Shown here: positions 26,698-53,839 of the stretch, piece after piece
How positions within the stretch are numbered: the first letter of the stretch is position 1
How the letters are laid out: each line of letters begins with the position of its first letter
Source: an uncultured Chitinophagaceae bacterium
Lineage (GTDB): Bacteria; Bacteroidota; Bacteroidia; Chitinophagales; CAIOSU01
Length of the DNA stretch: 64,000 nt
NCBI GenBank assembly: GCA_964543705.1
Contig: CAZIZP010000001.1
Location: 71,583 to 135,582, forward strand
Direction: 5' to 3'
Translations under genes and position numbers: made by a program
Notes under the pieces: generated by a model
Told to the model about the DNA's origin: nothing
Seen by the model: the letters and a program-made list of their open reading frames with translations, nothing else
Database searches by the model: none

Positions 26698-26725
26698 GTT
26701 GAGTAATTTTTATTAAATATTTTTA

Positions 26726-27088: not shown

Positions 27089-27152
27089 ATAAATTCAATT
27101 TTACCCTAAATCTCATATTTGTCAATAGGTTAATAAAATATTAGCTGAAAAT

Positions 27153-27190: not shown

Positions 27191-27212
27191 AATAATTCGA
27201 CCTACAAAGGTT

Positions 27213-27220
27213 TATTTTTG
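27213..27220 (+). promoter_or_regulatory. Candidate Bacteroidetes-type -7 promoter box (TAnnTTTG)
   Basis: TATTTTTG lies 21 nt upstream of the ATG at 27241. No good TTTG -33 element is seen at the expected spacing. Confidence 0.35.
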
Positions 27221-27240
27221 TAAAAAAATGAAACCTATTT

Positions 27241-27897: not shown

Positions 27898-28155
27898 TTT
27901 CATTAAATGATGTTATGTAATAAGCCAATAATGAATTTAAGTTTTTTAATAAAACTATTCCTCTCCTCCTTGTTCATTTAGACTACTTCCGGCATTTAAA
28001 GCAACTAACAATTACATATTAATTATTTAGGTTTATTTACTTAAATTAAGTGTTCAAACTAGGTATTCTTTACATAAATGTTTCCCTATTAGCTGTAAAA
28101 CAGGAAATTAAACGTTAACTGAATATACTTTTACAGTTAAACAAAATTCTACGTA

Positions 28156-28836: not shown

Positions 28837-28846
28837 CCTAATTTAA

Positions 28847-40051: not shown

Positions 40052-40064
40052 AGCTGTATATTTT

Positions 40065-41201
40065 TTAGTTAGGGTCTGTAACAGTGTTCAATGTTGGAGC
40101 AGAAGCTGGTGATTGTATGGTGGGATTAAATGTGGTGGTGCAACCCACACCATTAAGAGTATGTACAACCAAAATATATGGGCTTGCTCCAAATATATTA
40201 GATGTTGTACTATTGGTTATGGTAGTTGAAAAAGTATTATTACTGCCTGAAGTTGGCGTTGCACTTAAGCCTGCTGGTGGGTTAACCGTCCAGCTATAAG
40301 TGCTACCAGCAATACTGGTAGCAGAAAAGTTCAGCTGCGTACCCGAGCATTGGGGTCCCGTGGGCGCATTACGAACTGCGTTAGGAATAACTGTAACAGC
40401 CCTATCTACTGTTGTAGATCCACAGCTATTACTAATAGTAGCTCTTACTGTAAAATTGGAAGTAACTGAGCTAACAACTCCCGTACTTGAATTAATTGAA
40501 GCTCCACCTGAAAGAATGGAGTAGGTAATTGAAAAAGGTGTGGTGCCTACAGCGGCTGTTGCTGTATAGGTACTTGACCCTCCAGCACAAAGTGTAGTAG
40601 CACCGGCAGAAAAACTTGGAGAAGATGGGGCGGTGCAACTATACGTAGATGAATTATTCCATGAGTTAATAACGCCCGTACAATTTAAACAGTTACTATT
40701 TACCCCACTATTTCTAGTAGTGCCTAATAAATACCAGTCTGCCATGCAAGGATGAACAACAAGACTGATATAAATACCAGATGCTGAACCATCAGTGGTA
40801 TTAATAGTAGCACCAGTACCACCTGTACAACTTGAATTAAGAAAAACATAAGCACCCCAACCTTCTCTTTGAAGCTCTAATTTTATAGTAGTACCTCCAC
40901 AATTACCATCGTTCGCACTCGCTTGCCATGTATATGTTCCTGGATTTAAGTAGACTCTGACATATTCTCCAACTCTAAGATTAGGAAAAGTCTCACCTTG
41001 ATAATTGTCATTTTCATATACTTTGCAACTAAATTTTGCAAGGTCACTCTGAGCAGATGTACAAGCGGTTGGATTTGTGCATGTAATTTGGGCCAAACCT
41101 TCATCATAAGAAAACAGCAATATAAAGCCCATCAGTAACAACTTGCTGTATAGACAGATAAAACGCGTTTTTTTAGTGTTTGAGTAAATGTATTTTATCA
41201 T
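40065..41201 (-). CDS. Secreted Cys/Thr/Ser-rich protein (378 aa) without any recognisable C-terminal sorting domain
   Basis: Signal (..LLLMGFILLFSYDEGLAQ). Ig-like units (..C.G..L.F.A....G..Y.W..). It ends ..APTLNTVTDPN, 13 nt upstream of the next gene's ATG. Confidence 0.75.
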   Translation of the reverse strand: MIKYIYSNTKKTRFICLYSKLLLMGFILLFSYDEGLAQITCTNPTACTSAQSDLAKFSCKVYENDNYQGETFPNLRVGEYVRVYLNPGTYTWQASANDGNCGGTTIKLELQREGWGAYVFLNSSCTGGTGATINTTDGSASGIYISLVVHPCMADWYLLGTTRNSGVNSNCLNCTGVINSWNNSSTYSCTAPSSPSFSAGATTLCAGGSSTYTATAAVGTTPFSITYSILSGGASINSSTGVVSSVTSNFTVRATISNSCGSTTVDRAVTVIPNAVRNAPTGPQCSGTQLNFSATSIAGSTYSWTVNPPAGLSATPTSGSNNTFSTTITNSTTSNIFGASPYILVVHTLNGVGCTTTFNPTIQSPASAPTLNTVTDPN

Positions 41202-41520
41202 AGTTGTCGTTTTTTCAGTGGCGAAAAGTATTAAATATGTTTTGTTTAATTATACTTTACGCTAATGTAACCCTAATGTTTACATAATGTAAAAACAGAT
41301 TTTTTTTGAAATGAAGTTTCTGAGAGTAAGTAATTGTACTATATTTTTTATTCACATCGTATATTGAAACATTGTAAAACACCTTCTTAATTGCCTTATT
41401 TTATTGGTGCTTTGGCTATTGTTGCATTATATAAATTCAGTTCATTTAGATTAAAAAGAATTCCAAAAAAAGAAGTTTTTGAGTTTTTTTTGTGAGCAAA
41501 AAAATGCCTTTTGGCAAATA

Positions 41521-41666: not shown

Positions 41667-44600
41667 TTATTTAATAATTGTTACACTTCCTTTATAGTTT
41701 TTTTGTTCTCCGTTACAGGTAGTAGTTTTTAAAAAATATACATACACACCAGGAAGTTGCATTATGCCTTTATAGGTGCCATCCCATTTTTCAAAAGGGC
41801 TTGAAGCTTCAAATATTTTTTCACCCCAGCGATTAAATATTTTCAGGTTATAAAAATTAACAGCGGTAGCAAAAACTTCAAAAAAATCATTATTTCCATC
41901 GCCATTAGGTGAGAATGCATTGGGGATATATACAATAGATTTTTTACAATCTTTATTTACAATAATTTGTAAAAGAGCTGTTGCTTCACATCCATATTTA
42001 TCAGCAACCGTTAGTTGATAGTTTGTGTTTTCATAAGGAGTTATGGTTGGGTTTGGACAATTATTACAACTTAAATAGGTATCGGGCACCCATAAATAAG
42101 TAGGAGAAACAGCGTTTGTGGTTACAGATATTTGTAAAGTAGCACCAGTATCAACTACTGCCCGTTGTGGAGTTATAGATAGTTCATTGTTTATCACAAA
42201 AATATTCAGCAATGTTGTACTATCGCAGCCTGTTTCTGAAGTGCTTAACAAAGTATATAATCCGCTTTCAGAAATTTCTATACTATCGAAAATGAGTTTT
42301 TCGCCTTGGCAAATGGTATCGAAAATTACTGTTGAAACACTTGAATTTACTTGTAAATTAAGTAAGACAATAGAATCGCAGCCTAAAATACTTTGTAGCG
42401 TATCGCTATAAACACCAGCAGCATTTAGCTGCATGCCTGCAAATAAATAATTTTGGTTTTCGCAGATGATGGCATTTATAGAAGTAACAGTAGGGCTTAT
42501 AACCGTGAGATTTGTAAATACCAATGAATCGCAACCACCAACTGAAATAAAAGTATCTATATAATTACCACTTGTTTGTTGTAAAGTTCCGCCTGCAAAA
42601 TAGCTTTCACCATTGCAAATGGAAACTGTATCGAAATAAGAAATAAATGAATTGAATGATAATAGTGTAATTATTATTGAATCGCAACCGGAAGAACTTG
42701 TATAGGAATCGGAATAAATACCGGATGTGTTTTGCAAAGCGCCTCCCGCAAAGTAAGATTGTCCTGTGCAACGAGATATCGTTACTGTATCGTTGTAAAT
42801 ATTATTTACAATAAGATTTAGTGTAACTGTGCTATCGCAACCATTTACTGTGTTATAATTAGCAGTATATATACCCGATGAAGTAATGTTTTGATTATTA
42901 AAAACAAAAGTCGAACCTTCGCAAATTTGCTGGTGTATAAAATTCCTTTTAGAATTTGTTATTGATAGATTTAAATCAATAACACTATCGCAGCCATTAA
43001 AAGCAGCATTATTCAAAATTAAATTAGCTGTGTTTGTTGATTCGTAGTAAGTAACTCCGTTTATCCAAGTAAAACTATCGCAGGCAGTAACCACATCGGT
43101 ATATTGAGCAACAGGCTTAACCTCAACTTGTAATGATGTTTGGGTAGCACATTGACCTATAGAAGGAGTAAAAATATAATTGGTAGTAGCGGTATTATTT
43201 AAAGTCGGCAACCATGTGCCATTAATACCATTAGTTGAAGTAGTAGGTAATGGGCTTAATGTTTCGCTTGAACATATTGGCGCAATTTGGTTAAAAAATG
43301 GTGTTATAGATGGAATTACCCTAATTGTAGTGTTTGCAGATATTGCACATTGCCCTATATTGGGCGTAAAAGTATAGTTTGTGGTTGTTAAATTATTTAA
43401 GGCGGGTTGCCATGTTCCATTGATACCATTGTTAGAAGTAGTAGGCAATGGATTTAAAATTTCACCAGAACATATTGAATCAATCTCATTAAATATAGGT
43501 GTAACTATTGGATTTACAATAATAGTCATATTTGCTATTGTAGCGCATTGGTTATTGTTAGGCGTAAAAATATAGCTTGTGGTAGTAGTGTTATTCAGAG
43601 GAGGTTGCCATGTTCCCAAAACTCCATTTATTGAGGTTGATGGAAGTGGATTTAATACATCGCCTGAGCAAATAGGTAATATTTGATTAAATGTAGGAAT
43701 AACCGTTGGGTTTACAATAATTGTTATTGAAGCGGTATCAGCACAGGTATTGGCATTAGGTGTAAAAAAATATGTAGTAGTAGCGGTATTATTTAATGTT
43801 GGCTGCCAGGTTCCGCTTATGCCATTGATTGAGGTGATGGGTAAAGGATTTAATGTTTCTCCCGAGCAAATTGGTGCTATAGTATTGAAAACAGGTTTAG
43901 GTGCATTAGGAATGATGTATGTAATTCTTACTTCACCTCTTTCACCATTACCACCCTCTACTTGCCTATGCGCTGTTTGGCTGCTACCACCTTGTTGAAT
44001 TCTGTTGTGAATTAAGGCACCACTACCGCCACCACCTAAAATAAACCCAGTTATCCCGGCTTGCCCTGTATATCCAAAAAAGCTTGTTATTCTGTTACCG
44101 TTGGCTCCATTGCCTCCATTTGCTGCACCTCCAGTGCCTCCAATTCTTTGCGCTCCACCACCAGGAGATGTGCCATTAGCACCATTTGCATTTGAGCCTG
44201 CACAGCCACCTCCCGCACCACTTACATCAGGATTATTTCCACTGTGAGCACCAGAAGAACCATTACCACCATTAAAAATAATAGACCCTGCAGCACCTGT
44301 CCCTCCATTTCCGCCAGTTCCATTTGCTCCATTATGGCCAAACATGCTATTATTGAAACTGGTATTAACATAGTTAGCACCACCACCACCATTACCGCCA
44401 AAAGCAGTAAGTGACCCAATACCTGAGGTTGCAGGACCTGAAAAAATACTATTCCCACCTTGCAATCCCGCTTGTGCTCTATTAGTATTTAAAGCGGTAT
44501 TTATTATACCCCCAAGACCACCAGCTCCAACAGTAATTGTATAAACTTGTCCAGGCACAACAGTATAAGTTCTTTGAGCAAAGCCACCGCCACCCCCACC

Positions 44601-44864
44601 GCCCCCGGCACAACAAACTTCAGCAGTAGCACAGTCAGGCTGACTACAAGTGCCATTAAATTTAGACCATGCTGCACCACCTCCTCCTCCCCCACCCCAT
44701 GCTTGAACTGTAATTTCAGTTACACATGGTGGTACAGTCCACGAAATAGTTCCTGGACTTGAAAATATAAGTGTACTTTGACTTTGAACGGTTATGTATA
44801 TAAAAATATTGATTGTTGTAATAAATATATTTAAAAAACAAGAACCAAAATAAAATGTGTGCAT
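41667..44864 (-). CDS. Giant secreted protein: glycine-rich N-terminal domain, 4 x 66-aa repeats, 7 GCDS repeats, T9SS type-B (gliding-motility C-terminal) domain
   Basis: VTEITVQAWGGGGGGGAA...CCAGGGGGGGGFAQRTYTVVPGQVYTITVGAGGLGG starts a ~280-aa Gly/Asn-rich domain. The tail IVYIPNAFSPNGDGNNDFFEVF...LKIFNRWGEKIFE...WDGTYKG...LPGVYVYFL..YKGSVTIIK fits the TIGR04131-type CTD. Confidence 0.9.
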   Translation of the reverse strand: MHTFYFGSCFLNIFITTINIFIYITVQSQSTLIFSSPGTISWTVPPCVTEITVQAWGGGGGGGAAWSKFNGTCSQPDCATAEVCCAGGGGGGGGFAQRTYTVVPGQVYTITVGAGGLGGIINTALNTNRAQAGLQGGNSIFSGPATSGIGSLTAFGGNGGGGANYVNTSFNNSMFGHNGANGTGGNGGTGAAGSIIFNGGNGSSGAHSGNNPDVSGAGGGCAGSNANGANGTSPGGGAQRIGGTGGAANGGNGANGNRITSFFGYTGQAGITGFILGGGGSGALIHNRIQQGGSSQTAHRQVEGGNGERGEVRITYIIPNAPKPVFNTIAPICSGETLNPLPITSINGISGTWQPTLNNTATTTYFFTPNANTCADTASITIIVNPTVIPTFNQILPICSGDVLNPLPSTSINGVLGTWQPPLNNTTTTSYIFTPNNNQCATIANMTIIVNPIVTPIFNEIDSICSGEILNPLPTTSNNGINGTWQPALNNLTTTNYTFTPNIGQCAISANTTIRVIPSITPFFNQIAPICSSETLSPLPTTSTNGINGTWLPTLNNTATTNYIFTPSIGQCATQTSLQVEVKPVAQYTDVVTACDSFTWINGVTYYESTNTANLILNNAAFNGCDSVIDLNLSITNSKRNFIHQQICEGSTFVFNNQNITSSGIYTANYNTVNGCDSTVTLNLIVNNIYNDTVTISRCTGQSYFAGGALQNTSGIYSDSYTSSSGCDSIIITLLSFNSFISYFDTVSICNGESYFAGGTLQQTSGNYIDTFISVGGCDSLVFTNLTVISPTVTSINAIICENQNYLFAGMQLNAAGVYSDTLQSILGCDSIVLLNLQVNSSVSTVIFDTICQGEKLIFDSIEISESGLYTLLSTSETGCDSTTLLNIFVINNELSITPQRAVVDTGATLQISVTTNAVSPTYLWVPDTYLSCNNCPNPTITPYENTNYQLTVADKYGCEATALLQIIVNKDCKKSIVYIPNAFSPNGDGNNDFFEVFATAVNFYNLKIFNRWGEKIFEASSPFEKWDGTYKGIMQLPGVYVYFLKTTTCNGEQKNYKGSVTIIK
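43098..43889 (-). repeat. Four tandem 198-nt (66-aa) intragenic repeats
   Basis: The unit FN.I.PICSGE.LNPLP.TS.NGI.GTWQP.LNNT.TT.Y.FTP....CA......I.V.P...P occurs four times, spanning aa 326-589. The antisense shadow ORFs at 43180, 43381 and 43750 show the same periodicity. Confidence 0.9.
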
Positions 44865-45039
44865 TTAACTTAGCATTATAGCTATAAAGCTATCTACAGT
44901 TAGAAAAAAGCATTTAATAATTTTTTCGCAAAACGAAGTTTCTAAGGGTTTAAATAGTGATTATATATTGATTGACAATTCTATTAAATAGCATTATTTT
45001 AAGGTGTGTAATTAAAACTTAATTAAATATAAAACCTAT

Positions 45040-46494
45040 ATGCAAAGAAGGAATAAGAATGAGGACGATTTAATGCTATTGATAAAAAGTTTAAGTAGCT
45101 CTGAAAAAAGATACTTTAAAATTTTTTCGCAAAATGAAGTTTCTGAGGGGAAAGCGTATTTGTATTTATTTGATGTTATAAATAACACAAAAACTCCTAT
45201 TAACAATCAAACTTTAAAACAAAAACTTTCTGAAAAAGGCTACAATGTAGATATTGTTAAAACTAAACAATACTTGTTTAACAACATCGTAAAATCGCTA
45301 ATCCTTTTTGATGTAGATAATGACAGCGAAATAGCTATAAAAATGAAAATGCTTGAGGTAAGGGTTTTAGCAAAAAGGAATATGAATTATACTGCTACTC
45401 ACAAATTAAAACTACTTGAAAAAATATGTGCTGAACAAAATAAAACGATTGTTTTATCAGAAATTTACGGACTACAAAAAACAAACATCACTAATTCAAT
45501 AAATAAAGTAAACAGTATAAAAGAAATTGGTACCCTTATTTCAGTAGATAAAGAAAATACTTTAAGACTAGTTAACGAATTGAATTTAAAAAGTATTTTA
45601 TTAGAATTGAGCTATTTAAATTCTCAAGAATTCACAATTAATGAAGATGATTTTATAAACAAATGCAATGATATAATTCAAGATGATAGGTTAAAATTTG
45701 ATGTTGACAAACAAACCTACACAGGTCAAATGCTCTATTTTTTAATTGTAGGATATTTAAATCTAAAACTGAAAAACTATAAAAATGCAGTTGAATATTT
45801 TACCAAATACATCAACCTCCTCGATAAAAACAAATACCTACTGAAACAGAATCAGTTTAATTACATTTCAGGTTTAGGCAACCTAATAGCAGCTTATGGC
45901 AGGCTTAGGAAGTATAAAAAGATTGAAAACATATTAGCCAAGTTGAAAGCTATGAAATTTGAAGATGAAAGGTTGAATATTATGCAGATGAAATCTTATT
46001 ACTTGCATATCTCTCAGCTTTATAGTGAGACCAAAAGATTTAATGATTTAAGCAATTTGTTTTCAGGTTTTCAAACATGGGCATCAAAAAACAGAGATAA
46101 AATAGAAAAGCAAATACTATTAAAAATAGAGTATGGTTTTGCTATATCCTTTTTAGCTACTGGAAATTATGGCAAATCATTAGTTCTAGTTAATAGAATA
46201 TTGTCAGAATCAAAAATAAAGAGCTATATGAAGGTTGCCGTTTCATCCAAAATTATTGCTGCCATATGCCATTATAAAAAAGGCAGTAATGATGTTATGA
46301 AAAGCGTTTTAAAATCTTTAAGCCGACAATTATTAATTGAAGGTCTTAAAGAAACAAAAGAATATGTTTTTTCAAAAAGCTTTCTTAAAGATATTAGAGA
46401 TAATAAAAACGACTTTAAAATTCTTGCTAAGAAATACAATGAACTTAAACATAGTAATGTTTCATTCGATTTCAATGTATTGTATAATATGTAA
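45040..46494 (+). CDS. Helical-repeat (TPR-like) protein of unknown function, paralogue A (484 aa)
   Basis: No signal peptide. The N-terminal box LMLLIKSLSSSEKRYFKIFSQ....KAYLYLFDVI is shared with 46522-47973. The remainder is predicted all-alpha with TPR-like periodicity (..Y.NA..YF.K...). Confidence 0.75.
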   Translation: MQRRNKNEDDLMLLIKSLSSSEKRYFKIFSQNEVSEGKAYLYLFDVINNTKTPINNQTLKQKLSEKGYNVDIVKTKQYLFNNIVKSLILFDVDNDSEIAIKMKMLEVRVLAKRNMNYTATHKLKLLEKICAEQNKTIVLSEIYGLQKTNITNSINKVNSIKEIGTLISVDKENTLRLVNELNLKSILLELSYLNSQEFTINEDDFINKCNDIIQDDRLKFDVDKQTYTGQMLYFLIVGYLNLKLKNYKNAVEYFTKYINLLDKNKYLLKQNQFNYISGLGNLIAAYGRLRKYKKIENILAKLKAMKFEDERLNIMQMKSYYLHISQLYSETKRFNDLSNLFSGFQTWASKNRDKIEKQILLKIEYGFAISFLATGNYGKSLVLVNRILSESKIKSYMKVAVSSKIIAAICHYKKGSNDVMKSVLKSLSRQLLIEGLKETKEYVFSKSFLKDIRDNKNDFKILAKKYNELKHSNVSFDFNVLYNM

Positions 46495-46521
46495 AAAATA
46501 CAATTTCAACAATAAGCTAAG

Positions 46522-47973
46522 CTATTTACATTCTGTTATCCACTCAAAAATATTAAAGGGTATTAAATGAGTATTTAGTCTTTTTTCCTTGTTGAAATAC
46601 TTTTTTGTTTCTTCAATAAAATATTTAAAATTATCTGTCTTATATTTTTTAATAAATAAATTAAGCAAGGTTACCTCGGCTAGTAAGTTTTTTCCATATG
46701 TTGTATTAAATGCTCTTAATGCACCTTCGGCAAGATGCAAAAGAATGCTGTGGTTTTGAAGTTCAAAATGGCATATAAATAACAATGTTTTTGCAGAAGC
46801 AAAATGCGAGTGATTATTTTTTCGGTTAATAATATTCTGAAGATAATGAATAGCATTGTCATAATTTTTTAAATAAAAATGGCTAACCGCAAAACAATAA
46901 TCAAAATGGTTTAGTGCCTCATCGGGAATATTGCTATTTTGGTTTTGCTTTTCGCGCTCAATATACCTTTCTAATTTTATTGTTTTTGAGAATTCTTTTG
47001 TTTCAGTATATAACTTTAATAATGCTGAATAATGAAGCATAAAGAATAGGGATTCGTAGCCTTTATTATAACTTTTATTTTTTTCTAATTCTTCTAAATG
47101 TTTTGCTGCTTCAGAAAATTTTTTAGTGGTAATTAATAAATCAGTAAGCTGATAGTTAATGTTTAAAAAATTGAAGTAGTACTCTTTTTTTATTTTGGGG
47201 TAATTATGGTAAAGCTTAATATGCTCGCGCATAATATTTTTAGCTTTAATGGCATTGCCTTTGTCTGAGTGATAGGTTGCCAGTATATGCAAACGTATAG
47301 ATTGGGCTGAAAATGTACTAAGAGGTTTCTTTTTTTCTAATAGTAATTGTGCTACTATACTATCAGTTTCTGCTTTGTTGTTTGCGCCTTTAGTTTTTGC
47401 TGAAACTGCTCTTGAATAAAAGAATTTCAGCATAATATTTACCTGCACAATAATTTCATTCATTAACGAAAAGGCATGTTGCTCTTCCAGAATAATATTT
47501 TCAATTTCTTCATAACTAGTGTTTTCAAAAAACGATTGGTACAAATTGCTTTTTTTATGAGAATATAACATGGGTAAAAAACCTAGCCTTTCATGTTCAA
47601 GGCTAAGCTTTATTCCTTTATCTATCTTCTTCTTAGCAATAGGGTATAAACCCTTTTTTTGTAGAATTTTGATTTCTCTAATTATAGATAGTATTTCGTG
47701 TTCTATTGAAGAATCGGCATGAAAAGAAGAAAGACTTTTCATTACCTGCTGAAACAATAATTGTTTCAACATTCCAAAATTATCGGCATAGCCACCGGCA
47801 TATTTTTTTTTTGCTTTTTCTTCATCATATACCTGCATTTTTAAAATATCGTCAAAAAGATGAACATAATTTTTTGCTGTTGTGCCATGTAACGAAGTGT
47901 ATCTTTTAAAATATCGTTTTTCTGTTTTCGACAAAGCATGAACTAATTCAAAAAGGTATTCCGAAGACTTCAT
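46522..47973 (-). CDS. Helical-repeat (TPR-like) protein of unknown function, paralogue B (483 aa)
   Basis: N-terminal YLFELVHALSKTEKRYFKRYTS....KNYVHLFDDI, then ..LFQQVMKSLSSFHAD (compare ..LFNNIVKSLILFDVD in paralogue A). Same length and architecture. Convergent with paralogue A, 27-nt gap. Confidence 0.75.
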   Translation of the reverse strand: MKSSEYLFELVHALSKTEKRYFKRYTSLHGTTAKNYVHLFDDILKMQVYDEEKAKKKYAGGYADNFGMLKQLLFQQVMKSLSSFHADSSIEHEILSIIREIKILQKKGLYPIAKKKIDKGIKLSLEHERLGFLPMLYSHKKSNLYQSFFENTSYEEIENIILEEQHAFSLMNEIIVQVNIMLKFFYSRAVSAKTKGANNKAETDSIVAQLLLEKKKPLSTFSAQSIRLHILATYHSDKGNAIKAKNIMREHIKLYHNYPKIKKEYYFNFLNINYQLTDLLITTKKFSEAAKHLEELEKNKSYNKGYESLFFMLHYSALLKLYTETKEFSKTIKLERYIEREKQNQNSNIPDEALNHFDYCFAVSHFYLKNYDNAIHYLQNIINRKNNHSHFASAKTLLFICHFELQNHSILLHLAEGALRAFNTTYGKNLLAEVTLLNLFIKKYKTDNFKYFIEETKKYFNKEKRLNTHLIPFNIFEWITECK

Positions 47974-48152
47974 TGGGAGATATTTAATATTATGTATAAA
48001 TATGGTTTTTTATAGTGCTTTATACAATTTTTATAAATAGTTAGACAACTTATTTTTTAAGCAAGAATAAATTGACCCAGCATTAAGCATTGGTTACATT
48101 TAAGTTAATAAATCCAATAACTGTAATTAAACAAGTGTATAACCAATCTAAA

Positions 48153-50804
48153 ATGAAACATTTGTACTCAATAATATTATTTTTGGCTCTTACATCAATA
48201 CAGTCAGGTTTTTGTCAAAATCCTGGGTTTGAGACAACACCAGCTTCTACAAATGGGTGGACATTAGAGTCAGGCAGCACAACATGGTCAATTCCTTCTG
48301 GAGCGCCCTTACGTTCAGGCAATAACACACTAAGAGTAGTGGTGACCACTTCTAGTGCTCGTCATGCAAGACATACTTCTGGATATTCCGTGAGCATTCC
48401 AGCCTCAGGAACAAATTACGTGCATGTAATAGGCTATGCCCTTGCAGGAACTACTAGTGATCAGGCACGTATGCAGGCCATTAGTGCCACAGGCACAGAT
48501 GTTTTGGGCACGTATGTAAATTTTGCTTCCACAAACACTTGGCAACGTTTCACTTGCAGTGGGATTGCCACTAATAGCGCATCTTACTATCCAGGCTTTC
48601 AGGTTGACGGAGACTACTCTTCAGGTGGAGATATTTACCGATTCGATGACATTATCATCTATACCTCAACGAGTGCGGGAGTTGACCTAACTGCCCCAAA
48701 TTCCGCAACAGGGTTATCGGCAACTAAAAACGGCAGCGATGTTGATTTAGCCTGGGCTGATGGCACTGATAATGCTACAAACATAAGTGGTGTTGAGGGA
48801 ACACTTATTTTAAGAATAGCTGGAGATAAAACAACTGCTGTGCCCGTACCTCAATCTCAAACATGGTACTCCACCAATTCTGGAATAGGGCCAACAACTA
48901 TTGTAAATGGTAGTGATACCTGGACTGTTTTGCAAAATGGCTCCGCTTCAGGAAGTTATACAAATGCTGGTGCTTCAGGAAGCGACTACACCTATGTAGT
49001 TTACATGCGAGATAAAGCTTTTAACTATTCAACAGGAACTGCTATTTTTTATGAAGCAACTGTATTTGAAAACCCTACTTCAGGCGGCACAATAGGTAAT
49101 GCACAATCGGGCTGCGATGAACTAAACCCAAGCACAATTTCCAATGTTGCCGGAGCAAGTGGTCATTCAGGCACTTTGGTTTATAAATGGCAACATTCTA
49201 CTACAATTAATTCTTCGGGCTTTTCAGATATTTCAAGCTCTAACAACGCTACCTATGACCCTCCTTTAATTACCCAAACCACCTGGTATAGAAGATTAGC
49301 AATAGTTTCTGAAATAAATGATTGGGATGAAGCAGCTATTTCTAATGTTATTGAAATGTCTGTATTAGCCGCGCCTTCATCGGTAACGGCTGGTGTTACT
49401 CCAAATCCTGTATGCATAGGAGATACTGTATTTCTTACAGCTTCAGCATCGGGAGCCGATTCATGGATGTGGAATGGGCCAAATGGATTTATAGCTGAAG
49501 TGAAAGATACTTTTTTAGCCGATATAAGCATGAGCGAAGGAGGTAATTATTTTGTAACAGCCGAAAATGCTTGTGGTAATGGGGGGCAAGAAAAAACATT
49601 TAACCAAACTGATTTATCTCCATGGGCCGTTCAAGCAGGAGATTTTGCCGATGCAGGTTTTTGGAATTATTTAAGAGGTAATAATTGCTGTGAAGATGAT
49701 AGAATTTCTGCTCCTTCAACCCAAGCTTACGGTACATGGGAATTTGAATATCAGTTCTACAGCACTTCTACAACATGCCCTTCAAATAATCAAGTAGTTC
49801 GTTTTTTCCTTACTTCAAGCACTGCAGGTATGACAAGTGCAAACGGATATTACGTATATGTTGATGTTTGCAACAATGCTTTTCAGCTTAGAAAACTTAC
49901 AGCAGGCACGCCTTCTACAATAATTAGCGGCACATGGTCTCCTAATACAACTTCGTGGCACCACGTAAAAATTACCAGAAGTGCTGATAATACTTTCGAA
50001 CTGTTTCATAATGGTGTGTCTAAAGGAACCGGAATTGATGCTTCTTTTACTTCATCTAACCATATGGGTATTTGGACAACAGGTGCTTTTGTATCCGATA
50101 ACCACAGGATTAAATACGTAAAGGCAATTTCTAATTATTCCAATGGGCCTATTGTGGTTATTCAGCCAAATTTGACAAGTATAAACAATGCTATAACCCC
50201 CAACATGGCCGTTGGTGATTATTTATGGAGTGGAAAAACAAATACACCAAACTGGGAAACCCGCAGAAACTGGTTTGAATTGGTTTTTAATGACACTTTT
50301 TATATCGCTCCAACAATACCAAATGCAACAAAGAATGTTTATTTAATTACTTCGACAATTGCCGCCCAATGCGTAATATCAGAAGAAATTGAAGTGCTTG
50401 ATATTGCAGGAAATGTAGCAAAGAATTTAGTAATAGAATCAGGCACTACTCTTCAAATGACTCAAGATGCAGAACTTTCAATATTTGGAAATTGGATTAA
50501 TAATGGTGGAACATTTATTCCCGCTCAATCAACAGTTACATTTAAGGGCATTGAACAAACAATCAAATCATCGTGGACATCGGGTAATGAAAATTCATTT
50601 TATCATCTGATAATAGACAACAACGATACTGTTACAATATCAGATAATGTAAATGTCTTGAATAAAACAACCATTGAAAAAGGGGAGTTTATTATACCTG
50701 AAGACAGAGTGGCACGTTCTAAAAAAGTAGAATTAAAGGATAAACTACTTATAAAAGATAAAGGAACAGGCTCTAAAGGTGGTGAAATGAGGGTTAATGA
50801 ATAA
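48153..50804 (+). CDS. Giant secreted surface protein (883 aa): CBM-like N-terminus, LamG/concanavalin-like region, C-terminal MRVNE module; no T9SS CTD
   Basis: The ATG at 48153 gives MKHLYSIILFLALTSIQSGFCQ (signal). QNPGFETTPASTNGWTLESG.. is CBM4_9-like. ..VRFFLTSS...NGYYVYVD...FQLRKL...WHHVKITR..NTFELFHNG is LamG-like. The last 196 aa (50214-50801) start GDYLWSGKTNTPNWETRRNW and end SKGGEMRVNE-stop. Confidence 0.85.
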   Translation: MKHLYSIILFLALTSIQSGFCQNPGFETTPASTNGWTLESGSTTWSIPSGAPLRSGNNTLRVVVTTSSARHARHTSGYSVSIPASGTNYVHVIGYALAGTTSDQARMQAISATGTDVLGTYVNFASTNTWQRFTCSGIATNSASYYPGFQVDGDYSSGGDIYRFDDIIIYTSTSAGVDLTAPNSATGLSATKNGSDVDLAWADGTDNATNISGVEGTLILRIAGDKTTAVPVPQSQTWYSTNSGIGPTTIVNGSDTWTVLQNGSASGSYTNAGASGSDYTYVVYMRDKAFNYSTGTAIFYEATVFENPTSGGTIGNAQSGCDELNPSTISNVAGASGHSGTLVYKWQHSTTINSSGFSDISSSNNATYDPPLITQTTWYRRLAIVSEINDWDEAAISNVIEMSVLAAPSSVTAGVTPNPVCIGDTVFLTASASGADSWMWNGPNGFIAEVKDTFLADISMSEGGNYFVTAENACGNGGQEKTFNQTDLSPWAVQAGDFADAGFWNYLRGNNCCEDDRISAPSTQAYGTWEFEYQFYSTSTTCPSNNQVVRFFLTSSTAGMTSANGYYVYVDVCNNAFQLRKLTAGTPSTIISGTWSPNTTSWHHVKITRSADNTFELFHNGVSKGTGIDASFTSSNHMGIWTTGAFVSDNHRIKYVKAISNYSNGPIVVIQPNLTSINNAITPNMAVGDYLWSGKTNTPNWETRRNWFELVFNDTFYIAPTIPNATKNVYLITSTIAAQCVISEEIEVLDIAGNVAKNLVIESGTTLQMTQDAELSIFGNWINNGGTFIPAQSTVTFKGIEQTIKSSWTSGNENSFYHLIIDNNDTVTISDNVNVLNKTTIEKGEFIIPEDRVARSKKVELKDKLLIKDKGTGSKGGEMRVNE

Positions 50805-50911
50805 TAGTTTAGAAAACTTATTTATCAGCATAAAATTATCCTTTTTTCGTTTTTCCTGTAAATAAATTCACACAGAGTTAATCTGAACATCAAACAATAT
50901 TATTAATTCGT

Positions 50912-53839
50912 ATGAAAGGTCTATCCGACTTTACAGTCAACCACCGCCTCATAGCACTACTTGTATTTTGTATAGTATTTGTTTTTTCATTTTCTGTCAA
51001 TGCACAAGTAGTGCTGAATGAGGTGTCGGTAAGACCGGGAGGTAATCAGGGGTTAATTGTGTTTAATGGTAATTCGGGAAATGAGTATGTTGAATTATAT
51101 AATCCATCTTGCAGCCCTGTAGATGTATCGGGTTTTTTTATTGCTTGCAGGCAAGAATTTGCTGGCACAACCTCGGGTGGCGCATTTAGAATCCCTAATA
51201 TTCCCTCAGCTATAATTGCTCCTGGAGATCATTTGGTGCTGGGCACATCTACTTCTTCTGCTGACCCCAATAGTATAGATATAAAACTACCAGACTATAC
51301 AACCAACTACTGCTTAAACAATAGTGGATTTAATTTTATATTGGCTAATGCAGACGGCTGGGTGGCTCTATATGATGCATCAGGAACGCCTGTAGATGCA
51401 ATTTACTGGAGCAGCAGTGCAGGTAATATTTCTCAGGCTGCTGATTTTGCTGGAATTCCATGTTTGCCTGTCGGTAGCCCTGTTGGTATCACATTAGAAA
51501 GTGCACAACAAATAAATACATCTTTTCCAGGCGTATTATCATATGTAGGAGGTAATCCTTCAGCTGGGTTAACTTACAGCAGAATACCAGATGGCAGCAC
51601 TTGGCAAAGAGAAATTACCCCAACTATAAACAGAACTACAGTTGGCAATTGTAATGGTGGTAATTGTGTGCCTGTGTCAACTATAACTTTTACTGCTGCT
51701 GTTACCAATCCTTCTTGTGCACAAAATAATGGCAGTATTACCATGAATGTTATTTCAACAGGAACAGCATCTTATGCATGGAGTGCAAATGCCAATACAG
51801 GAAATAATAACACAGCAAATAATTTAACTGCTGGCACTTATAATGTTACAATTACTCAAAGTGGTTGCACTAAAGACACCGCTATTACTTTGGTTGCCCC
51901 CAATTCTCCAACACTTATAATAAGCAATATTCAAAATCCTACGTGTGCAGGAAATGATGGCTCATTGAATGCTGCAATTGCAGGTGGAACTGCACCTTAT
52001 AGTGTAAGTATAGATACCGGCTCAGGAACACCAATAAATATTACTGTCCCTTTTGCTACCTCTGCACCTGTAAACAATTTACCTGCACGCACTATAACCA
52101 TAAATATTACCGATGCAGCAGGATGTACAGTAACACAATCGGCAACACTTACTGCGCCAACCAACTGTTGCCAGTTTAGTTTTTCAGCATCTGTAACACA
52201 ACCTAATTGTGGCGCAACGAATGGTTCTATTGCTATTACGGTGACAAACGGTTCGGGCAATTACTCTTATACATGGAGCAGTAATGCCAATACGGGCAAT
52301 GTTTCTCAAGCAACTAATTTAGGTGCCGGAAATTATTTGGTAACTATTACCGATTTAGGATTTTCTAATTGCACAAAAGACACTGCTATATCTCTTGCCA
52401 GTGCAGGTGCTCCTATTATAAATTCAATTAACAAAACCGATGAAAATTGCTTAGGTAGTAATAATGGCAGCGCAACAGTTGCAGCAAGTGGTGGCACAGG
52501 AACTTTGAGTTATTTATGGAGTTCAGGGCAACAAACGCCAACTATTAATAATCTTTCACCGGGAAATTATATTGTTTCTGTAACCGATGCCAATGGATGT
52601 GTTGCCGTAGGTAACATCACAATTTTACAAGGGCCTGTTTGTTGTGTACTTACAGCATCTGTTAATACTCAACAAACTGATTGCAATGCAGCAACAGGAA
52701 GCATAACAATTACAGTTGATGCAAATTCCGGAGATGCACCTTTTCAATACAGTATTAATGGCGGCACCACATTTTCTGCAAACAATCAATTTAACCTACT
52801 TGCTGCTGCCACCTATTTTATAGAAGTGATAGATGCCAACAATTGTATCTTCAGAGATACAGTAATAGTTACTGAAGCTAATAATGATATTACTATTAGC
52901 ATTTCACAAACAGATGTTTCTTGTTTTGGATTGAATGATGCATCTATTGTATTGAATATTTCAGGAAGCAATACACCTTTCAGTATTGAATGGTCAGATG
53001 GTGTATCTCAACAATCTTCAAGAAACAGTCTTGCATCAGGAATTTATGATGTTACAATTACCGACCAGTTAGGTTGTACCGAAAATGCAAGTATTACATT
53101 AACAGAACCATCACCGGTTAGTGTTGACTTAGGCGAAAATCAAACAATTTGTAATGGAAGCAGTATTGTCTTGGATGCCGGAAATAACAACTCTTATGAA
53201 TGGTCTAATGGTTCAACACAAAGCAGTATTACAGTTTCTGAAGCGGGTATTTATTCGGTAACAGTGGCAAACGCTAACTCATGCACAGCAACAGATTCGG
53301 TAGAGATATTTTTAAGTGATGTAACCGTTAATGCGGGCAATGATACTTCAATAATTGAAAATAATGCTGTTGTATTAGATGCAATAAGCAACTCAAATGG
53401 CGGTTCATTTATTTGGTCACCATCAACTTCATTATCGTGCAATAATTGCAACAACCCTGTTGCTACTCCAAGAGAAACCACTACTTACACTGTAACCTAT
53501 ACCAATGAGTTTAGTTGTGTAGCTTCCGATGATATTACTATTATAGTTATTGAAGGAGAATATTATTTTTATATGCCCAATATTTTTTCGCCTAATGCCG
53601 ATGGTAATAACGATTTGGTTTTCCCTATTTATAATGGCACCAAGCAATTTACTTTACGCATTTGGAATCGTTGGGGACAAAAAGTTTTTGAATGTGTGAA
53701 TGTTAACGAAGGGTGTGTTTGGGACGGCACTGTGAAAGGCAAACTATTAGACCCAACGGTATTGACTTGGGAAGCAGTAGTTGAATTTAAAATACCCAGT
53801 ATTGAAAGATATAAAGGTAGTATTACACTCATAAAATAA
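50912..53839 (+). CDS. Secreted protein: lamin-tail (LTD) domain, SprB-type repeats, T9SS type-B C-terminal domain (975 aa)
   Basis: Signal ..VFVFSFSVNAQ. VVLNEVSVRPGG...EYVELYNPSCSPVDVSGFFI is LTD-like. Repeated units C...NGSI.......G...Y.Y.WS are SprB-repeat-like. Tail YFYMPNIFSPNADGNNDLVFPIY...LRIWNRWGQKVFE...WDGTVKG...YKGSITLIK. Confidence 0.9.
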   Translation: MKGLSDFTVNHRLIALLVFCIVFVFSFSVNAQVVLNEVSVRPGGNQGLIVFNGNSGNEYVELYNPSCSPVDVSGFFIACRQEFAGTTSGGAFRIPNIPSAIIAPGDHLVLGTSTSSADPNSIDIKLPDYTTNYCLNNSGFNFILANADGWVALYDASGTPVDAIYWSSSAGNISQAADFAGIPCLPVGSPVGITLESAQQINTSFPGVLSYVGGNPSAGLTYSRIPDGSTWQREITPTINRTTVGNCNGGNCVPVSTITFTAAVTNPSCAQNNGSITMNVISTGTASYAWSANANTGNNNTANNLTAGTYNVTITQSGCTKDTAITLVAPNSPTLIISNIQNPTCAGNDGSLNAAIAGGTAPYSVSIDTGSGTPINITVPFATSAPVNNLPARTITINITDAAGCTVTQSATLTAPTNCCQFSFSASVTQPNCGATNGSIAITVTNGSGNYSYTWSSNANTGNVSQATNLGAGNYLVTITDLGFSNCTKDTAISLASAGAPIINSINKTDENCLGSNNGSATVAASGGTGTLSYLWSSGQQTPTINNLSPGNYIVSVTDANGCVAVGNITILQGPVCCVLTASVNTQQTDCNAATGSITITVDANSGDAPFQYSINGGTTFSANNQFNLLAAATYFIEVIDANNCIFRDTVIVTEANNDITISISQTDVSCFGLNDASIVLNISGSNTPFSIEWSDGVSQQSSRNSLASGIYDVTITDQLGCTENASITLTEPSPVSVDLGENQTICNGSSIVLDAGNNNSYEWSNGSTQSSITVSEAGIYSVTVANANSCTATDSVEIFLSDVTVNAGNDTSIIENNAVVLDAISNSNGGSFIWSPSTSLSCNNCNNPVATPRETTTYTVTYTNEFSCVASDDITIIVIEGEYYFYMPNIFSPNADGNNDLVFPIYNGTKQFTLRIWNRWGQKVFECVNVNEGCVWDGTVKGKLLDPTVLTWEAVVEFKIPSIERYKGSITLIK

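What the first reader, a model, noticed from the sequence alone, without database searches (positions are those of the whole stretch)
45040..47973. Two convergent paralogous ~484-aa helical proteins, each divergently paired with an adhesin locus: candidate uncharacterised regulators
45040-46494 (+) and 46522-47973 (-) are the same length. They share an N-terminal box (L...SLS..EKRYFK...S.....K.Y..LFD.I), a second box (K..LF..(I/V)(V/M)KSL..F..D) and an all-helical TPR-like remainder. Neither has a signal peptide, a TM segment or a recognisable DNA-binding or enzymatic domain. Each is transcribed divergently from a giant secreted-protein gene (starts at 44864 and 48153). That is the classic regulator-target arrangement, here duplicated with mirror symmetry.
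Basis: inference. Interest (0 to 1): 0.55.

Follow-up and report, generated by a model that had tools for sequence, protein, structure and literature searches.

The report
RusR-like regulators paired with secreted-protein genes
Two distantly related cytoplasmic helical proteins belong to a very large, almost unstudied Bacteroidota family whose only tested member (RusR) switches on a sugar-use locus, and each stays next to its own set of secreted surface-protein genes across related genomes, so they are probably local gene switches, although DNA binding is unproven.

Summary
A (45040-46494 +, 484 aa) and B (46522-47973 -, 483 aa) are convergent paralogues (22% identity, E=2e-16). They share the EKRYFK and K..L..SL boxes, are all-helical, and have no signal peptide or TM segment.

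They are not orphans. Both align full-length to NCBIfam NF058569 (BT2802/RusR), but far below its cutoff. The wider family has more than 10,000 50%-identity clusters across Bacteroidota and allies, no Pfam model, and only "hypothetical" annotations. RusR is a genetically supported activator of the ribose locus.

Each gene forms a conserved module with its divergent neighbour.
- B orthologues (46-87% identity) in four other contexts face the same LTD/SprB/CHU_C + Ig_7/Por_Secre_tail genes, while the other flank changes.
- A orthologues face the Gly_rich_2/CHU_C protein.
- Conserved non-coding motifs lie upstream of the target genes.

The "mirror duplication" idea fails. The two divergent target genes are unrelated, and A and B are adjacent only in this lineage.

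Family-wide, 86% of members are divergent from their upstream gene. Only about 14% face a T9SS cargo gene (background 3.5%).

The conserved N-terminal domain has no significant match to any DNA-binding fold, so direct DNA binding is inferred, not shown.

Verdict: plausible local regulators, a new variant of the RusR kind. Interest is moderate.

The parts
45040..46494 (+). Gene A, 484 aa. RusR-superfamily cytoplasmic all-alpha protein with a conserved 5-helix N-terminal domain (about residues 10-95) and a TPR-like superhelix.
   Evidence: ORF. NF058569 full-length hit, E=9e-29, 100.8 bits, below the 550-bit cutoff. AF2 pLDDT 88.3. TPR fold matches. No TM segment or signal peptide.
46522..47973 (-). 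Gene B, 483 aa. Ancient paralogue of A (22% identity), same family.
   Evidence: NF058569 hit, E=1e-17, 64.4 bits. Orthologues at 46-87% identity.
41667..44864 (-). T1, 1065 aa secreted protein (Gly_rich_2 + cysteine-rich repeats + CHU_C type B T9SS sorting domain). Divergent partner of A.
   Evidence: Pfam/NCBIfam. Signal-like N-terminus. An orthologue is paired with the A orthologue in L085 (56% identity) and in L091 (partial, 61%).
44921..44946 (+). Candidate cis-element of module A in the A/T1 divergent intergenic region: TTTTTTCGCAAAACGAAGTTTCTAAG. The core GAAG(C/T)TTC is nearly palindromic.
   Evidence: It is the best-conserved block of the intergenic region in orthologous loci L091, L085 and (weakly) L003. 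0 of 2000 shuffles reach the match to the copy inside the A coding sequence.
45122..45147 (+). Second copy of the module-A element, inside the A coding sequence (codons for KIFSQNEVSEG), exactly 201 nt downstream of the intergenic copy.
   Evidence: 45-nt direct repeat, 82% identity. The 201-202 nt offset is conserved in L085, L091 and L003.
41299..41324 (+). Third copy of the module-A element (ATTTTTTTTGAAATGAAGTTTCTGAG), in the 465-nt intergenic region upstream of the 378-aa gene. A weaker copy lies at 41471-41483.
   Evidence: Four of the five matches in the window (up to 2 mismatches) to TGAAGTTTCTGAG lie between 41312 and 45147, all on the + strand. Chance expectation is 1.78 per 64 kb.
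36647..41201 (-). Two genes of unknown function (378 aa and 1134 aa, no Pfam or NCBIfam hit) downstream of T1. Possible further members of an A regulon; this link is weak.
   Evidence: ORFs. No family hits. The element copy lies upstream. The same gene order is found in L001 and L002.
48040..48055 (+). Candidate cis-element of module B, site 1 (GTTAGACAACTTATTT), about 100 nt upstream of the T2 start codon in the B/T2 divergent intergenic region.
   Evidence: The motif is identical in L088, L089 and L090 and has one mismatch in L083.
48153..50804 (+). T2, 883 aa secreted protein (signal peptide, PKD-like domain, no recognised T9SS sorting domain). Divergent partner of B.
   Evidence: Orthologues at 77-82% identity lie next to B orthologues in L083, L088 and L089.
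50808..50823 (+). Module-B element, site 2 (TTTAGAAAACTTATTT), in the T2-T3 intergenic region about 90-104 nt upstream of the T3 start codon. A second conserved block, AAATAAATTCAC, follows at 50860-50871.
   Evidence: The motif is identical in L083, L088 and L089 and has one difference in L086, the 46% orthologue locus where B faces T3 directly. Both blocks are also shared with the T2 upstream region, at different spacing.
50912..53839 (+). T3, 975 aa (lamin-tail domain + SprB repeats + CHU_C type B T9SS sorting domain).
   Evidence: Conserved next to every B orthologue examined.
53866..55779 (+). T4, 637 aa (choice-of-anchor J + Ig_7 + Por_Secre_tail type A T9SS sorting domain). Lies 26 nt after T3, so it is probably co-transcribed.
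   Evidence: Conserved in all B-orthologue loci.

Best explanation
A and B are two divergent members of the RusR (BT2802)-like superfamily. This is a phylum-wide family of roughly 500-aa cytoplasmic proteins built from a highly conserved 5-helix N-terminal domain (EKRYFK box) and a TPR-like superhelix. Each most likely acts as a local, one-component-style transcription activator of the secreted-protein genes transcribed divergently from it. A would control T1 and perhaps the 378-aa and 1134-aa genes beyond it. B would control T2 and the T3-T4 pair.

The proposed mechanism is inferred. The TPR body would sense a ligand or partner protein. The conserved N-terminal domain would contact DNA, or RNA polymerase, at short conserved motifs about 60-120 nt upstream of the target start codons. 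For B that motif is TTAGAMAACTTATTT. For A it is TTTTTTC..AAA.YGAAGYTTCT.

Shown here: the homology, the fold, the cytoplasmic location, the conserved gene pairing and the conserved upstream motifs.

Inferred: that the proteins regulate transcription, that they bind DNA, that the motifs are their binding sites, and what signal they respond to.

The convergent A-B adjacency is a lineage-specific juxtaposition of two independent modules, not a duplicated unit.
For: Homology to RusR:
- Both proteins align end to end with NF058569: A 7-457 against 3-449 of 502, E=9e-29; B 1-450, E=1e-17.
- Deleting rusR abolishes growth on ribose and cuts rus induction to about 10% (bioRxiv 10.1101/574913).
- BT2802 has fitness -4.3 on ribose (PMC8121099).
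- rusR itself is not ribose-induced.

Module conservation:
- B orthologues at 87, 79, 75 and 46% identity all face the T3-like LTD/SprB/CHU_C and T4-like Ig_7/Por_Secre_tail genes. A T2-like gene precedes them in the 75-87% loci.
- The gene downstream of B differs each time: A, LysM/SPOR, homoserine dehydrogenase, or alanine dehydrogenase.
- A orthologues face a T1 orthologue in L085 and L091, without B nearby.

Cis-elements:
- The B-module 15-mer is conserved upstream of both T2 and T3 in every orthologous locus, including the 46% one.
- The A-module element is the best-conserved block of its intergenic region and recurs upstream of the next gene cluster.

Family level:
- The upstream neighbour is divergent in 66/77 cases against 366/977 for other genes in the same loci (p=7e-17).
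- The upstream neighbour is T9SS cargo in 10/74 cases against 32/906 background (odds ratio 4.3, p=7e-4).
- One clade of 7 members is entirely paired with T9SS cargo genes.
- An unrelated subfamily member, P0015, also faces a Por_Secre_tail protein.
- Several genomes carry multiple copies, as expected for specific regulators.
- The N-terminal domain is the most conserved part of the family and is net basic (+6.3 per 100 aa against +2.3 for the rest).
Against: - No DNA-binding domain is detectable by sequence.
- The N-terminal domain model (pLDDT 84) has no significant structural match. The best hits are Fur/PerR-type winged helices at E=1.5-5 and TM 0.40-0.43, and the model has no beta wing.
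- DNA binding has not been demonstrated for RusR in anything I could read. NCBI names the family only a 'ribose utilization protein'.
- A and B score far below the NF058569 cutoff of 550 bits.
- Most family members examined sit next to metabolic genes: HMGL-like 13, GlutR 7 and Glyoxalase 7 of 74 upstream neighbours, and gamma-glutamyltranspeptidase 12 of 78 downstream. Much of that looks like inherited synteny.
- The loci sampled are not phylogenetically independent, so the p-values are optimistic.
- The candidate motifs could be promoter elements rather than operators.
- No shared motif was found across other family members.
- In L003, the A orthologue faces a different secreted protein.
Confidence: 0.55

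Rival explanations
1. A and B are non-DNA-binding TPR scaffolds or chaperones that act after transcription on the neighbouring giant secreted proteins. They might hold them export-competent in the cytoplasm or assist their delivery. The gene linkage would then reflect a protein-protein partnership rather than transcription control.
For: The body of the protein is a TPR-like superhelix, a typical protein-binding fold. The best structural matches are the peptide-binding TPRs LGN and KLC1 and the adaptor LapB. There is a weak sub-threshold Pfam hit of B to the type III secretion TPR protein HrpB1/HrpK. No DNA-binding fold was found. Linkage with specific cargo genes is conserved.
Against: The one tested homologue, RusR, affects transcript accumulation of its locus, and its neighbours are cytoplasmic kinases and a PUL, not giant secreted proteins. 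Most family members are not next to secreted proteins. The divergent, monocistronic arrangement (86%) is more typical of regulators than of chaperones, which are usually co-transcribed with their client. The most conserved part of the family is the N-terminal domain, not the TPR groove. Cytoplasmic chaperones for T9SS cargo are not known (my own knowledge).
Confidence: 0.15
2. The proteins regulate the neighbouring genes indirectly. They might act as a co-activator or adaptor for another transcription factor or sigma factor, or act on RNA through antitermination or mRNA stability, and would not themselves recognise the conserved DNA motifs.
For: There is no recognisable DNA-binding fold. The delta-rusR mutant keeps about 10% induction. 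The conserved motifs lie 60-120 nt upstream of the start codons and could fall in 5' leaders. One copy of the A element lies inside the A coding sequence, which fits an RNA-level element as well as a DNA site. No canonical TAnnTTTG promoter box is present in either intergenic region, so the transcription start sites are unknown.
Against: No partner gene is consistently linked: downstream neighbours are heterogeneous and sigma-70 domains appear in only 2 of 78. The conserved basic N-terminal domain is present in every member and is never found alone or fused to another domain in what I sampled.
Confidence: 0.15
3. The proteins have a general cellular role unrelated to their neighbours, and the adjacency to secreted-protein genes is inherited synteny in a small group of related genomes.
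For: Large clades of the family show lineage-specific synteny with housekeeping genes such as HMGL-like synthase, glutamyl-tRNA reductase and gamma-glutamyltranspeptidase. The orthologous loci for A and B come from fairly close relatives (63-87% identity).
Against: The B pairing survives to 46% protein identity while the other flank changes in every locus. A and B modules are found separately. T9SS cargo is enriched about fourfold among upstream neighbours across distant members. Conserved motifs lie upstream of the neighbours. RusR has a locus-specific phenotype. Multiple paralogues per genome occur.
Confidence: 0.12

Closest known systems
RusR (BT2802) of Bacteroides thetaiotaomicron; NCBIfam NF058569 'BT2802 family ribose utilization protein'
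   Same: It is homologous over the full length, with the same roughly 500-aa single-architecture protein, the same N-terminal box and a helical body. It sits next to the locus it is thought to control. It is a candidate positive regulator that is not itself induced.
   Different: A and B score only 100.8 and 64.4 bits against a 550-bit cutoff and share about 20-26% identity with other family members. Their neighbours are T9SS-secreted surface proteins, not ribokinases, SusC/D or a permease. No ribose link exists. RusR's own mechanism is unresolved.
RRNPP-type regulators (PlcR, NprR, Rgg, PrgX, ComR) of Firmicutes
   Same: The overall logic is shared: a cytoplasmic protein with a small N-terminal domain and a TPR-type sensor, often encoded next to and divergent from its target. 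This comparison rests on established knowledge plus the fold result.
   Different: RRNPP proteins carry an XRE-type HTH that Pfam detects. A and B show none. They share no sequence similarity, occur in a different phylum, are larger (484 aa against about 285-420 aa), and have no adjacent small peptide gene that I noticed.
LysR-type and other divergently transcribed local regulators
   Same: The gene arrangement is shared: a monocistronic regulator divergent from its target, with candidate sites in the shared intergenic region.
   Different: The fold is completely different. There is no winged-helix LysR HTH and no periplasmic-binding-protein-like effector domain.
Generic TPR scaffolds (LGN/Pins, LapB, kinesin light chain, APC/C and CSN subunits)
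   Same: These are the best structural matches to the body of the protein (Foldseek E about 3e-4 to 1e-3, probability 1.0). There is also a weak profile hit to CSN3 (E about 1e-3).
   Different: TM-scores are low (0.25-0.43 on the query), identity is 8-14%, Pfam TPR models are sub-threshold, and none of these proteins has the EKRYFK N-terminal domain.

Membership tests
BT2802/RusR family (NCBIfam NF058569) | Full-length alignment to the family HMM | tested here: met
   A residues 7-457 align to profile positions 3-449 of 502, E=9e-29. B residues 1-450 align to 1-453 of 502, E=1e-17.
BT2802/RusR family (NCBIfam NF058569) | Score at or above the curated cutoff (550 bits) | tested here: not met
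   A scores 100.8 bits and B 64.4 bits. Ten other members of the wider family also score only 76-212 bits. A and B are therefore superfamily relatives, not RusR orthologues.
BT2802/RusR family (NCBIfam NF058569) | Linked to a ribose-utilisation locus (ribokinases, SusC/D, permease) | tested here: not met
   The neighbours are T9SS cargo genes. No ribokinase or SusC/D was seen among the window ORFs that were scanned, which were the neighbours of A and B plus ten large ORFs, not every ORF.
BT2802/RusR family (NCBIfam NF058569) | Required for transcriptional activation of the adjacent locus | not testable with these tools
   This needs deletion plus RT-qPCR or RNA-seq. It is known only for RusR itself.
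RusR-like superfamily (as delimited here by profile A1) | A roughly 480-530 aa single-architecture protein with N-terminal L..LI.SL..EKRYFK, Y..LF and K.YL...IL.SL boxes, followed by an all-alpha body | tested here: met
   Invariant E22, K23, R24, Y25, F26, L43 and F44. 83-99% conservation in 150 representatives. 10,073 clusters at E<=1e-3, and the 150 best hits listed are full length. AF2 model is all-helical.
RRNPP regulators | N-terminal XRE-type helix-turn-helix DNA-binding domain | tested here: not met
   No HTH family found for the full proteins at E<0.01. For the first 101 residues of 24 members the only HTH-type Pfam hit is HTH_12 at E=0.17-0.18 in 2 members, not significant. Foldseek search of the N-terminal model gives no hit with E<1.
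RRNPP regulators | C-terminal TPR-type sensor domain | tested here: met
   Foldseek matches to TPR superhelices with probability 1.0. Sub-threshold TPR_8 and ANAPC3 Pfam hits.
Winged-helix (Fur-like) DNA-binding domains | Three-helix core plus beta wing, with significant structural similarity | tested here: inconclusive
   Fur, PerR, Zur and Mur dominate the top hits, but at E=1.5-5, probability 0.15-0.35, TM 0.40-0.43 and rmsd 3.8-7 A. The model has five helices and no strands.
SARP/BTAD-type activators | OmpR-type winged helix followed by a BTAD helical domain | tested here: not met
   No Trans_reg_C or BTAD hit in Pfam.
T9SS cargo (applies to the neighbouring genes, not to A and B) | C-terminal type A (Por_Secre_tail) or type B (CHU_C) sorting domain plus an N-terminal signal peptide | tested here: met
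   T1 CHU_C E=7e-18; T3 CHU_C E=1e-10; T4 Por_Secre_tail E=5e-12. N-termini are hydrophobic. T2 has a signal peptide but no recognised sorting domain.

The most novel reading that the evidence does not exclude
The conserved five-helix EKRYFK domain is a previously undescribed DNA-binding (or RNA-polymerase-contacting) module. It would define a phylum-wide family of one-component regulators in Bacteroidota and related FCB phyla, with more than 10,000 sequence clusters and no Pfam model. Whole subfamilies, including A and B, would be dedicated to switching on specific T9SS-secreted surface proteins through short upstream motifs such as TTAGAMAACTTATTT. If so, RusR would be only the first glimpse of a major regulator class that is missing from current regulon maps of this phylum.
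Probability: 0.35. Interest if true: 0.75.

Novelty: new variant of a known kind. Interest (0 to 1): 0.5.

Why it matters
Transcription control in Bacteroidota is poorly mapped, and little is known about how individual T9SS cargo or surface-protein genes are switched on.

- **Size of the gap.** This family is very large. It is annotated only as "hypothetical", has no Pfam model, and has exactly one genetically studied member.
- **What this window adds.** Distant members form conserved two-part modules with T9SS cargo genes and carry conserved upstream motifs. That gives concrete, cheap experiments: EMSA or DAP-seq on about 180-bp fragments.
- **What a positive result would do.** It would establish the mechanism of RusR-type proteins and open up a regulator class that may control surface-protein repertoires, adhesion and gliding.
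- **What a negative result would do.** The family would still be a conserved partner of secreted proteins that needs explaining.

Tried and rejected
1. **Mirror-symmetric duplication of a regulator-target unit: rejected.** T1 and T2 are not homologous (E=0.15). A and B are only 22% identical, no closer than either is to other family members. The modules occur separately elsewhere.
2. **Cryptic HTH or winged helix in the first ~100 aa: no significant match.** Pfam at E up to 10 on 24 N-terminal domains gave only noise. The AF2 model of residues 1-101 (pLDDT 84) was searched against the PDB with Foldseek and nothing reached E<1.
3. **Solved relatives by sequence.** Only weak CSN3 hits, E about 1e-3.
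4. **N-terminal domain standing alone or fused to other domains.** The profile search returned short proteins. Of the two checked, one was cut off at a contig end and the other came from a frameshift-split gene, so this gave no information. One fragment (P0279) carries a precomputed PF27612.1 label that the local Pfam copy could not reproduce. This is unresolved.
5. **Common operator for the whole family.** The motifs AAGYT[K]TCTRA and GAAGYTTC are not enriched in 75 intergenic regions upstream of other family genes compared with 423 controls.
6. **Direct similarity between the two divergent intergenic regions.** None beyond AT-richness.
7. **Canonical Bacteroidota -7 box TAnnTTTG.** Absent from both intergenic regions. 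The sigma-70 consensus scan found no more sites than in shuffled sequence.
8. **Universal linkage of the family to secreted proteins: rejected.** Only 10 of 74 upstream neighbours are T9SS cargo. Most are metabolic genes.
9. **First genome scan with alignment A1.** It failed because there was no conserved 7-column stretch. It succeeded with alignment A2.
10. **L003 (67% A orthologue).** Its upstream neighbour has a signal-like N-terminus but is not a T1 homologue.


Full report
**1. The observation**

A is at 45040-46494 (+), 484 aa. B is at 46522-47973 (-), 483 aa. They are convergent, with 27 nt between their stop codons.

BLASTP of A against B gives 22% identity over 416 residues, E=2e-16. 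They are true but ancient paralogues. The N-terminal box (L..L(I/V)..LS..EKRYFK ... Y..LFD.I) and the second box (KQ.LF..(I/V)(V/M)KSL..F..D) are both present.

Neither protein has a hydrophobic stretch that could be a signal peptide or membrane helix. The highest Kyte-Doolittle 19-residue window is 1.12 for A and 1.31 for B. Pfam gives only sub-threshold TPR-type hits.

The divergent neighbours are large secreted proteins:
- T1 (41667-44864 -, 1065 aa) has a glycine-rich domain and a CHU_C type B T9SS sorting domain.
- T2 (start codon at 48153, 883 aa) has a signal peptide and a PKD-like domain.
- T3 follows T2 and has a lamin-tail domain, SprB repeats and CHU_C.
- T4 follows T3 and has choice-of-anchor J, Ig_7 and Por_Secre_tail.

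The descriptive part of the finding is confirmed. "T9SS cargo" is what is shown for T1, T3 and T4. "Adhesin" is a guess.

**2. What the proteins are**

They are not orphans. Both align over their whole length to NCBIfam NF058569, "BT2802 family ribose utilization protein". A scores 100.8 bits (E=9e-29) and B scores 64.4 bits (E=1e-17), far below the curated cutoff of 550 bits.

BT2802 is RusR of Bacteroides thetaiotaomicron:
- It lies immediately upstream of the ribose-utilisation PUL.
- It was described as having predicted DNA-binding motifs but no homology to known PUL regulators.
- Its deletion abolishes growth on ribose and leaves only about 10% of rus induction.
- It is not itself induced by ribose (bioRxiv 10.1101/574913).
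- An independent transposon screen gave BT2802 a fitness of -4.3 on ribose (PMC8121099).
- A later regulon study treats the rus genes as the RusR module (PMC12596196).

I found no paper showing DNA binding or a structure.

A profile of A, B and their first homologues (alignment A1) was searched against 1.84 billion representative proteins. It finds 10,073 clusters at E<=1e-3 and 5,216 at E<=1e-30. The best 150 hits listed all match end to end and are 477-535 aa long.

They come from Bacteroidota of many orders and from Ignavibacteria, Kapaibacteria and Calditrichia. Every source name I could retrieve is "hypothetical protein". Other members of this wider family also score only 76-212 bits on NF058569. 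The NCBI model therefore covers the RusR orthologues only, and A and B belong to a much larger, unnamed superfamily.

**3. Structure**

AlphaFold2 on alignment A1 gives a confident all-helical model of A (mean pLDDT 88.3, pTM 0.73, 25 helices).

Foldseek against the PDB returns only generic TPR superhelices: LGN/Pins, LapB, kinesin light chain and APC/C subunits. These have E about 3e-4 to 1e-3 and query TM-scores of 0.25-0.43. A sequence-profile search of the PDB gives only a weak hit to CSN3.

The N-terminal ~95 residues form five helices and are the most conserved part of the family:
- E22, K23, R24, Y25, F26, L43 and F44 are invariant in 19 sequences.
- The same positions are 83-99% conserved in 150 representatives, together with K76 and L79.
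- Across the family this domain is more basic than the rest of the protein, +6.3 against +2.3 net charge per 100 residues.

An AF2 model of residues 1-101 (pLDDT 84) was searched against the PDB. Nothing reached E<1. The top of the list is dominated by the winged-helix DNA-binding domains of Fur, PerR, Zur and Mur (TM 0.40-0.43, probability 0.15-0.35). The model has no beta wing. Pfam on 24 N-terminal domains at E up to 10 gave only noise. A DNA-binding fold is therefore neither shown nor excluded.

**4. Gene neighbourhood, orthologue level**

This is the strongest evidence.

B orthologues were found in four other genomic contexts:

| Locus | Identity to B | Divergent genes (in order) | Gene downstream of B |
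|---|---|---|---|
| window | - | T2, T3, T4 | A |
| L088 | 87% | T2-like, T3-like, T4-like | LysM/SPOR |
| L089 | 79% | T2-like, T3-like, T4-like | contig ends |
| L083 | 75% | T2-like, T3-like, T4-like | homoserine dehydrogenase |
| L086 | 46% | T3-like, T4-like (no T2) | alanine dehydrogenase |

(target homology by tblastn.)

A orthologues:
- In L085 (63% identity) the divergent gene is a T1 orthologue: Gly_rich_2 + CHU_C, 1192 aa, 56% identical over the N-terminal 416 residues.
- In L091 (79%) the partial divergent gene matches the T1 N-terminus at 61% identity.
- In L003 (67%) the divergent partial gene has a signal-like N-terminus but is not a T1 homologue.
- In L085 and L091 the gene downstream of A is not B.

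A and B are adjacent only in the window and in two metagenomic contigs carrying proteins identical to A and B in the same gene order. T1 and T2 are not homologous. The picture is two independent regulator-like gene plus cargo modules that have come to lie back to back in this lineage. It is not a mirrored duplication.

**5. Gene neighbourhood, family level**

I made simple ORF calls in the 80 genome loci and compared family genes with the other genes in the same loci.
- The family gene is divergent from its upstream neighbour in 66 of 77 cases, against 366 of 977 for other genes (p=7e-17). It is usually a stand-alone unit with its own divergent promoter region.
- Pfam on the upstream neighbours is heterogeneous: HMGL-like synthases 13, glutamyl-tRNA reductase 7, Por_Secre_tail 7 and glyoxalase 7 of 74.
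- Among downstream neighbours, gamma-glutamyltranspeptidase accounts for 12 of 78.
- With sorting-domain HMMs built iteratively from the window's own cargo proteins, 10 of 74 upstream neighbours are T9SS cargo, against 32 of 906 background genes (odds ratio 4.3, p=7e-4).

A rough neighbour-joining tree shows one clade of seven members that are all divergently paired with T9SS cargo. It also shows large clades with fixed metabolic neighbours, which look like vertically inherited orthologues.

Two further cases of pairing with T9SS cargo:
- P0015, from another subfamily, faces a Choice_anch_L/PKD/Por_Secre_tail protein.
- A Vicingaceae fragment faces a Peptidase_M1/Por_Secre_tail protein.

Some genomes carry several copies. 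L015 has two copies divergent from each other, L051 has two copies flanking a cargo gene, and three assemblies contribute two loci each.

The loci are not phylogenetically independent, so these p-values overstate the evidence.

**6. Candidate cis-elements**

*Module B.* The 15-mer GTTAGACAACTTATT (48040-48054) lies about 100 nt upstream of the T2 start codon. The motif is identical in L088, L089 and L090 and has one mismatch in L083.

A second copy, TTTAGAAAACTTATT (50808-50822), lies in the 107-nt T2-T3 spacer, about 90-104 nt upstream of the T3 start codon. The motif is identical in L083, L088 and L089. In L086, where B faces T3 directly, the same position reads TTTAGAAACCTTATT.

Alignment of the five T3 upstream regions shows two sharp conserved blocks in otherwise diverged sequence: TTTAGAAA(A/C)CTTATTT and A(T/C)AAATA(A/T)ATTCAC. 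Both blocks recur upstream of T2, but 27 nt closer together. That variable spacing argues that the first block is not a fixed-spacing core promoter element.

*Module A.* The element TTTTTTCGCAAAACGAAGTTTCT (44921-44943) is the best-conserved block of the A/T1 intergenic region in L091 and L085, and weakly in L003.

It has an 82%-identical 45-nt copy inside the A coding sequence exactly 201 nt downstream, covering the codons for KRYFKIFSQNEVSEG. None of 2000 shuffles reached that match, and the 201-202 nt offset is kept in the orthologues.

A third copy (41299-41324) and a weaker fourth (41471-41483) lie in the 465-nt region upstream of the next genes, the 378-aa and 1134-aa proteins of unknown function. 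Four of the five window matches to TGAAGTTTCTGAG cluster between 41312 and 45147, all on the + strand. The core GAAG(C/T)TTC is nearly palindromic.

These are candidates only. They could be operators, promoter parts or leader elements. No canonical Bacteroidota TAnnTTTG box is present in either intergenic region. The two intergenic regions are not similar to each other. A motif combining the A and B elements is not enriched upstream of other family members.

**7. Most likely mechanism**

Putting this together, I think A and B are local, RusR-like activators. The TPR-like body would sense a signal, either a small molecule or a partner protein. The conserved basic N-terminal domain would contact DNA or the transcription machinery at the motifs upstream of the divergent cargo genes.

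The steps that are shown:
- homology to RusR
- the fold
- the cytoplasmic location
- the conserved modules
- the conserved upstream motifs
- the family-wide divergent arrangement

The steps that are inferred:
- regulation itself
- DNA binding
- the assignment of the motifs as binding sites
- the nature of the signal

I put 0.55 on "regulates the adjacent genes at the transcript level", and somewhat less on direct DNA binding. The rivals are a TPR scaffold or chaperone for the cargo proteins (0.15), an indirect or RNA-level regulator (0.15), and a general function with inherited synteny (0.12).

**8. Comparison with known systems and novelty**

The closest known protein is RusR. A and B share its architecture and are homologous to it. 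They fail the curated family cutoff and have no link to ribose genes, so they are superfamily relatives, not RusR orthologues.

In logic they resemble RRNPP regulators (HTH plus TPR) and LysR-style divergent local regulators. They lack the defining DNA-binding domains of both.

I rate this a new variant of a known but barely characterised kind. The new points are the link of RusR-like proteins to T9SS cargo modules, the size and phyletic spread of the family, and the candidate cis-elements. Interest is moderate (0.5). The context evidence is good and the family is a real gap in annotation, but nothing here demonstrates the mechanism.

Noticed in passing
window 44904-44948 and 45105-45149: A 45-nt direct repeat (82% identity) lies between the A/T1 intergenic region and the 5' coding region of A, offset by exactly 201 nt and in frame. 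The upstream copy translates to ...RKKHLIIFSQNEVSKG... and then hits a stop. The offset and the similarity are kept in orthologous loci, so it is either an old partial duplication that has been co-opted or a pair of related binding sites.
   Followed up: yes
window 34082-56000: This stretch is an island of secreted or T9SS-cargo genes. It includes a 385-aa protein with a Fib_succ_major domain, a 429-aa protein with Por_Secre_tail, T1, T3 and T4. The 1134-aa and 378-aa proteins have no Pfam or NCBIfam hit at all.
   Followed up: partly
window 16240-32827 and 1987-3666: This is a signal-transduction-rich region. It holds a 1713-aa multi-PAS histidine kinase (20454-25595), a FIST-domain protein (25588-26697), a 1326-aa GAF/PAS hybrid kinase with a receiver domain (28847-32827), a 747-aa HAMP/PAS kinase (16240-18483) and a TPR-SpoIIE phosphatase (1987-3666).
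   Followed up: no
window 5713-9138: Another 1141-aa protein with a PKD_6 domain, similar in type to T2. It is not next to any family member.
   Followed up: no
L015 7757-11524; L051 5941-11533: Other genomes carry two family paralogues side by side. In L015 they are divergent from each other across a 705-nt spacer. In L051 they flank a 683-aa T9SS cargo gene, and the first copy also faces a 951-aa cargo gene.
   Followed up: partly
P0279 (107-aa fragment): This N-terminal-domain fragment carries a precomputed Pfam label PF27612.1. The local Pfam-A copy gives no hit for it, so a newer Pfam release may already hold a model for this domain. I could not find out what it is.
   Followed up: partly
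L093 4001-5469: A family gene is split into 119-aa and 367-aa ORFs only 5 nt apart. This is probably a frameshift or an assembly error. It shows that the short 'N-domain only' hits in the database can be artefacts.
   Followed up: partly
window 58541-59587: A 37-kDa nucleoid-associated protein (NA37 family, E=3e-39) is encoded a few kb downstream of the cargo island.
   Followed up: no
Protein A C-terminus (window 46380-46494): A lacks several C-terminal residues that are nearly invariant in the family. W483 of the consensus is N in A, E413 is K and E445 is S. A is also about 25 residues shorter than most members. B keeps the tryptophan and E413. A may therefore have a modified C-terminal function.
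   Followed up: partly
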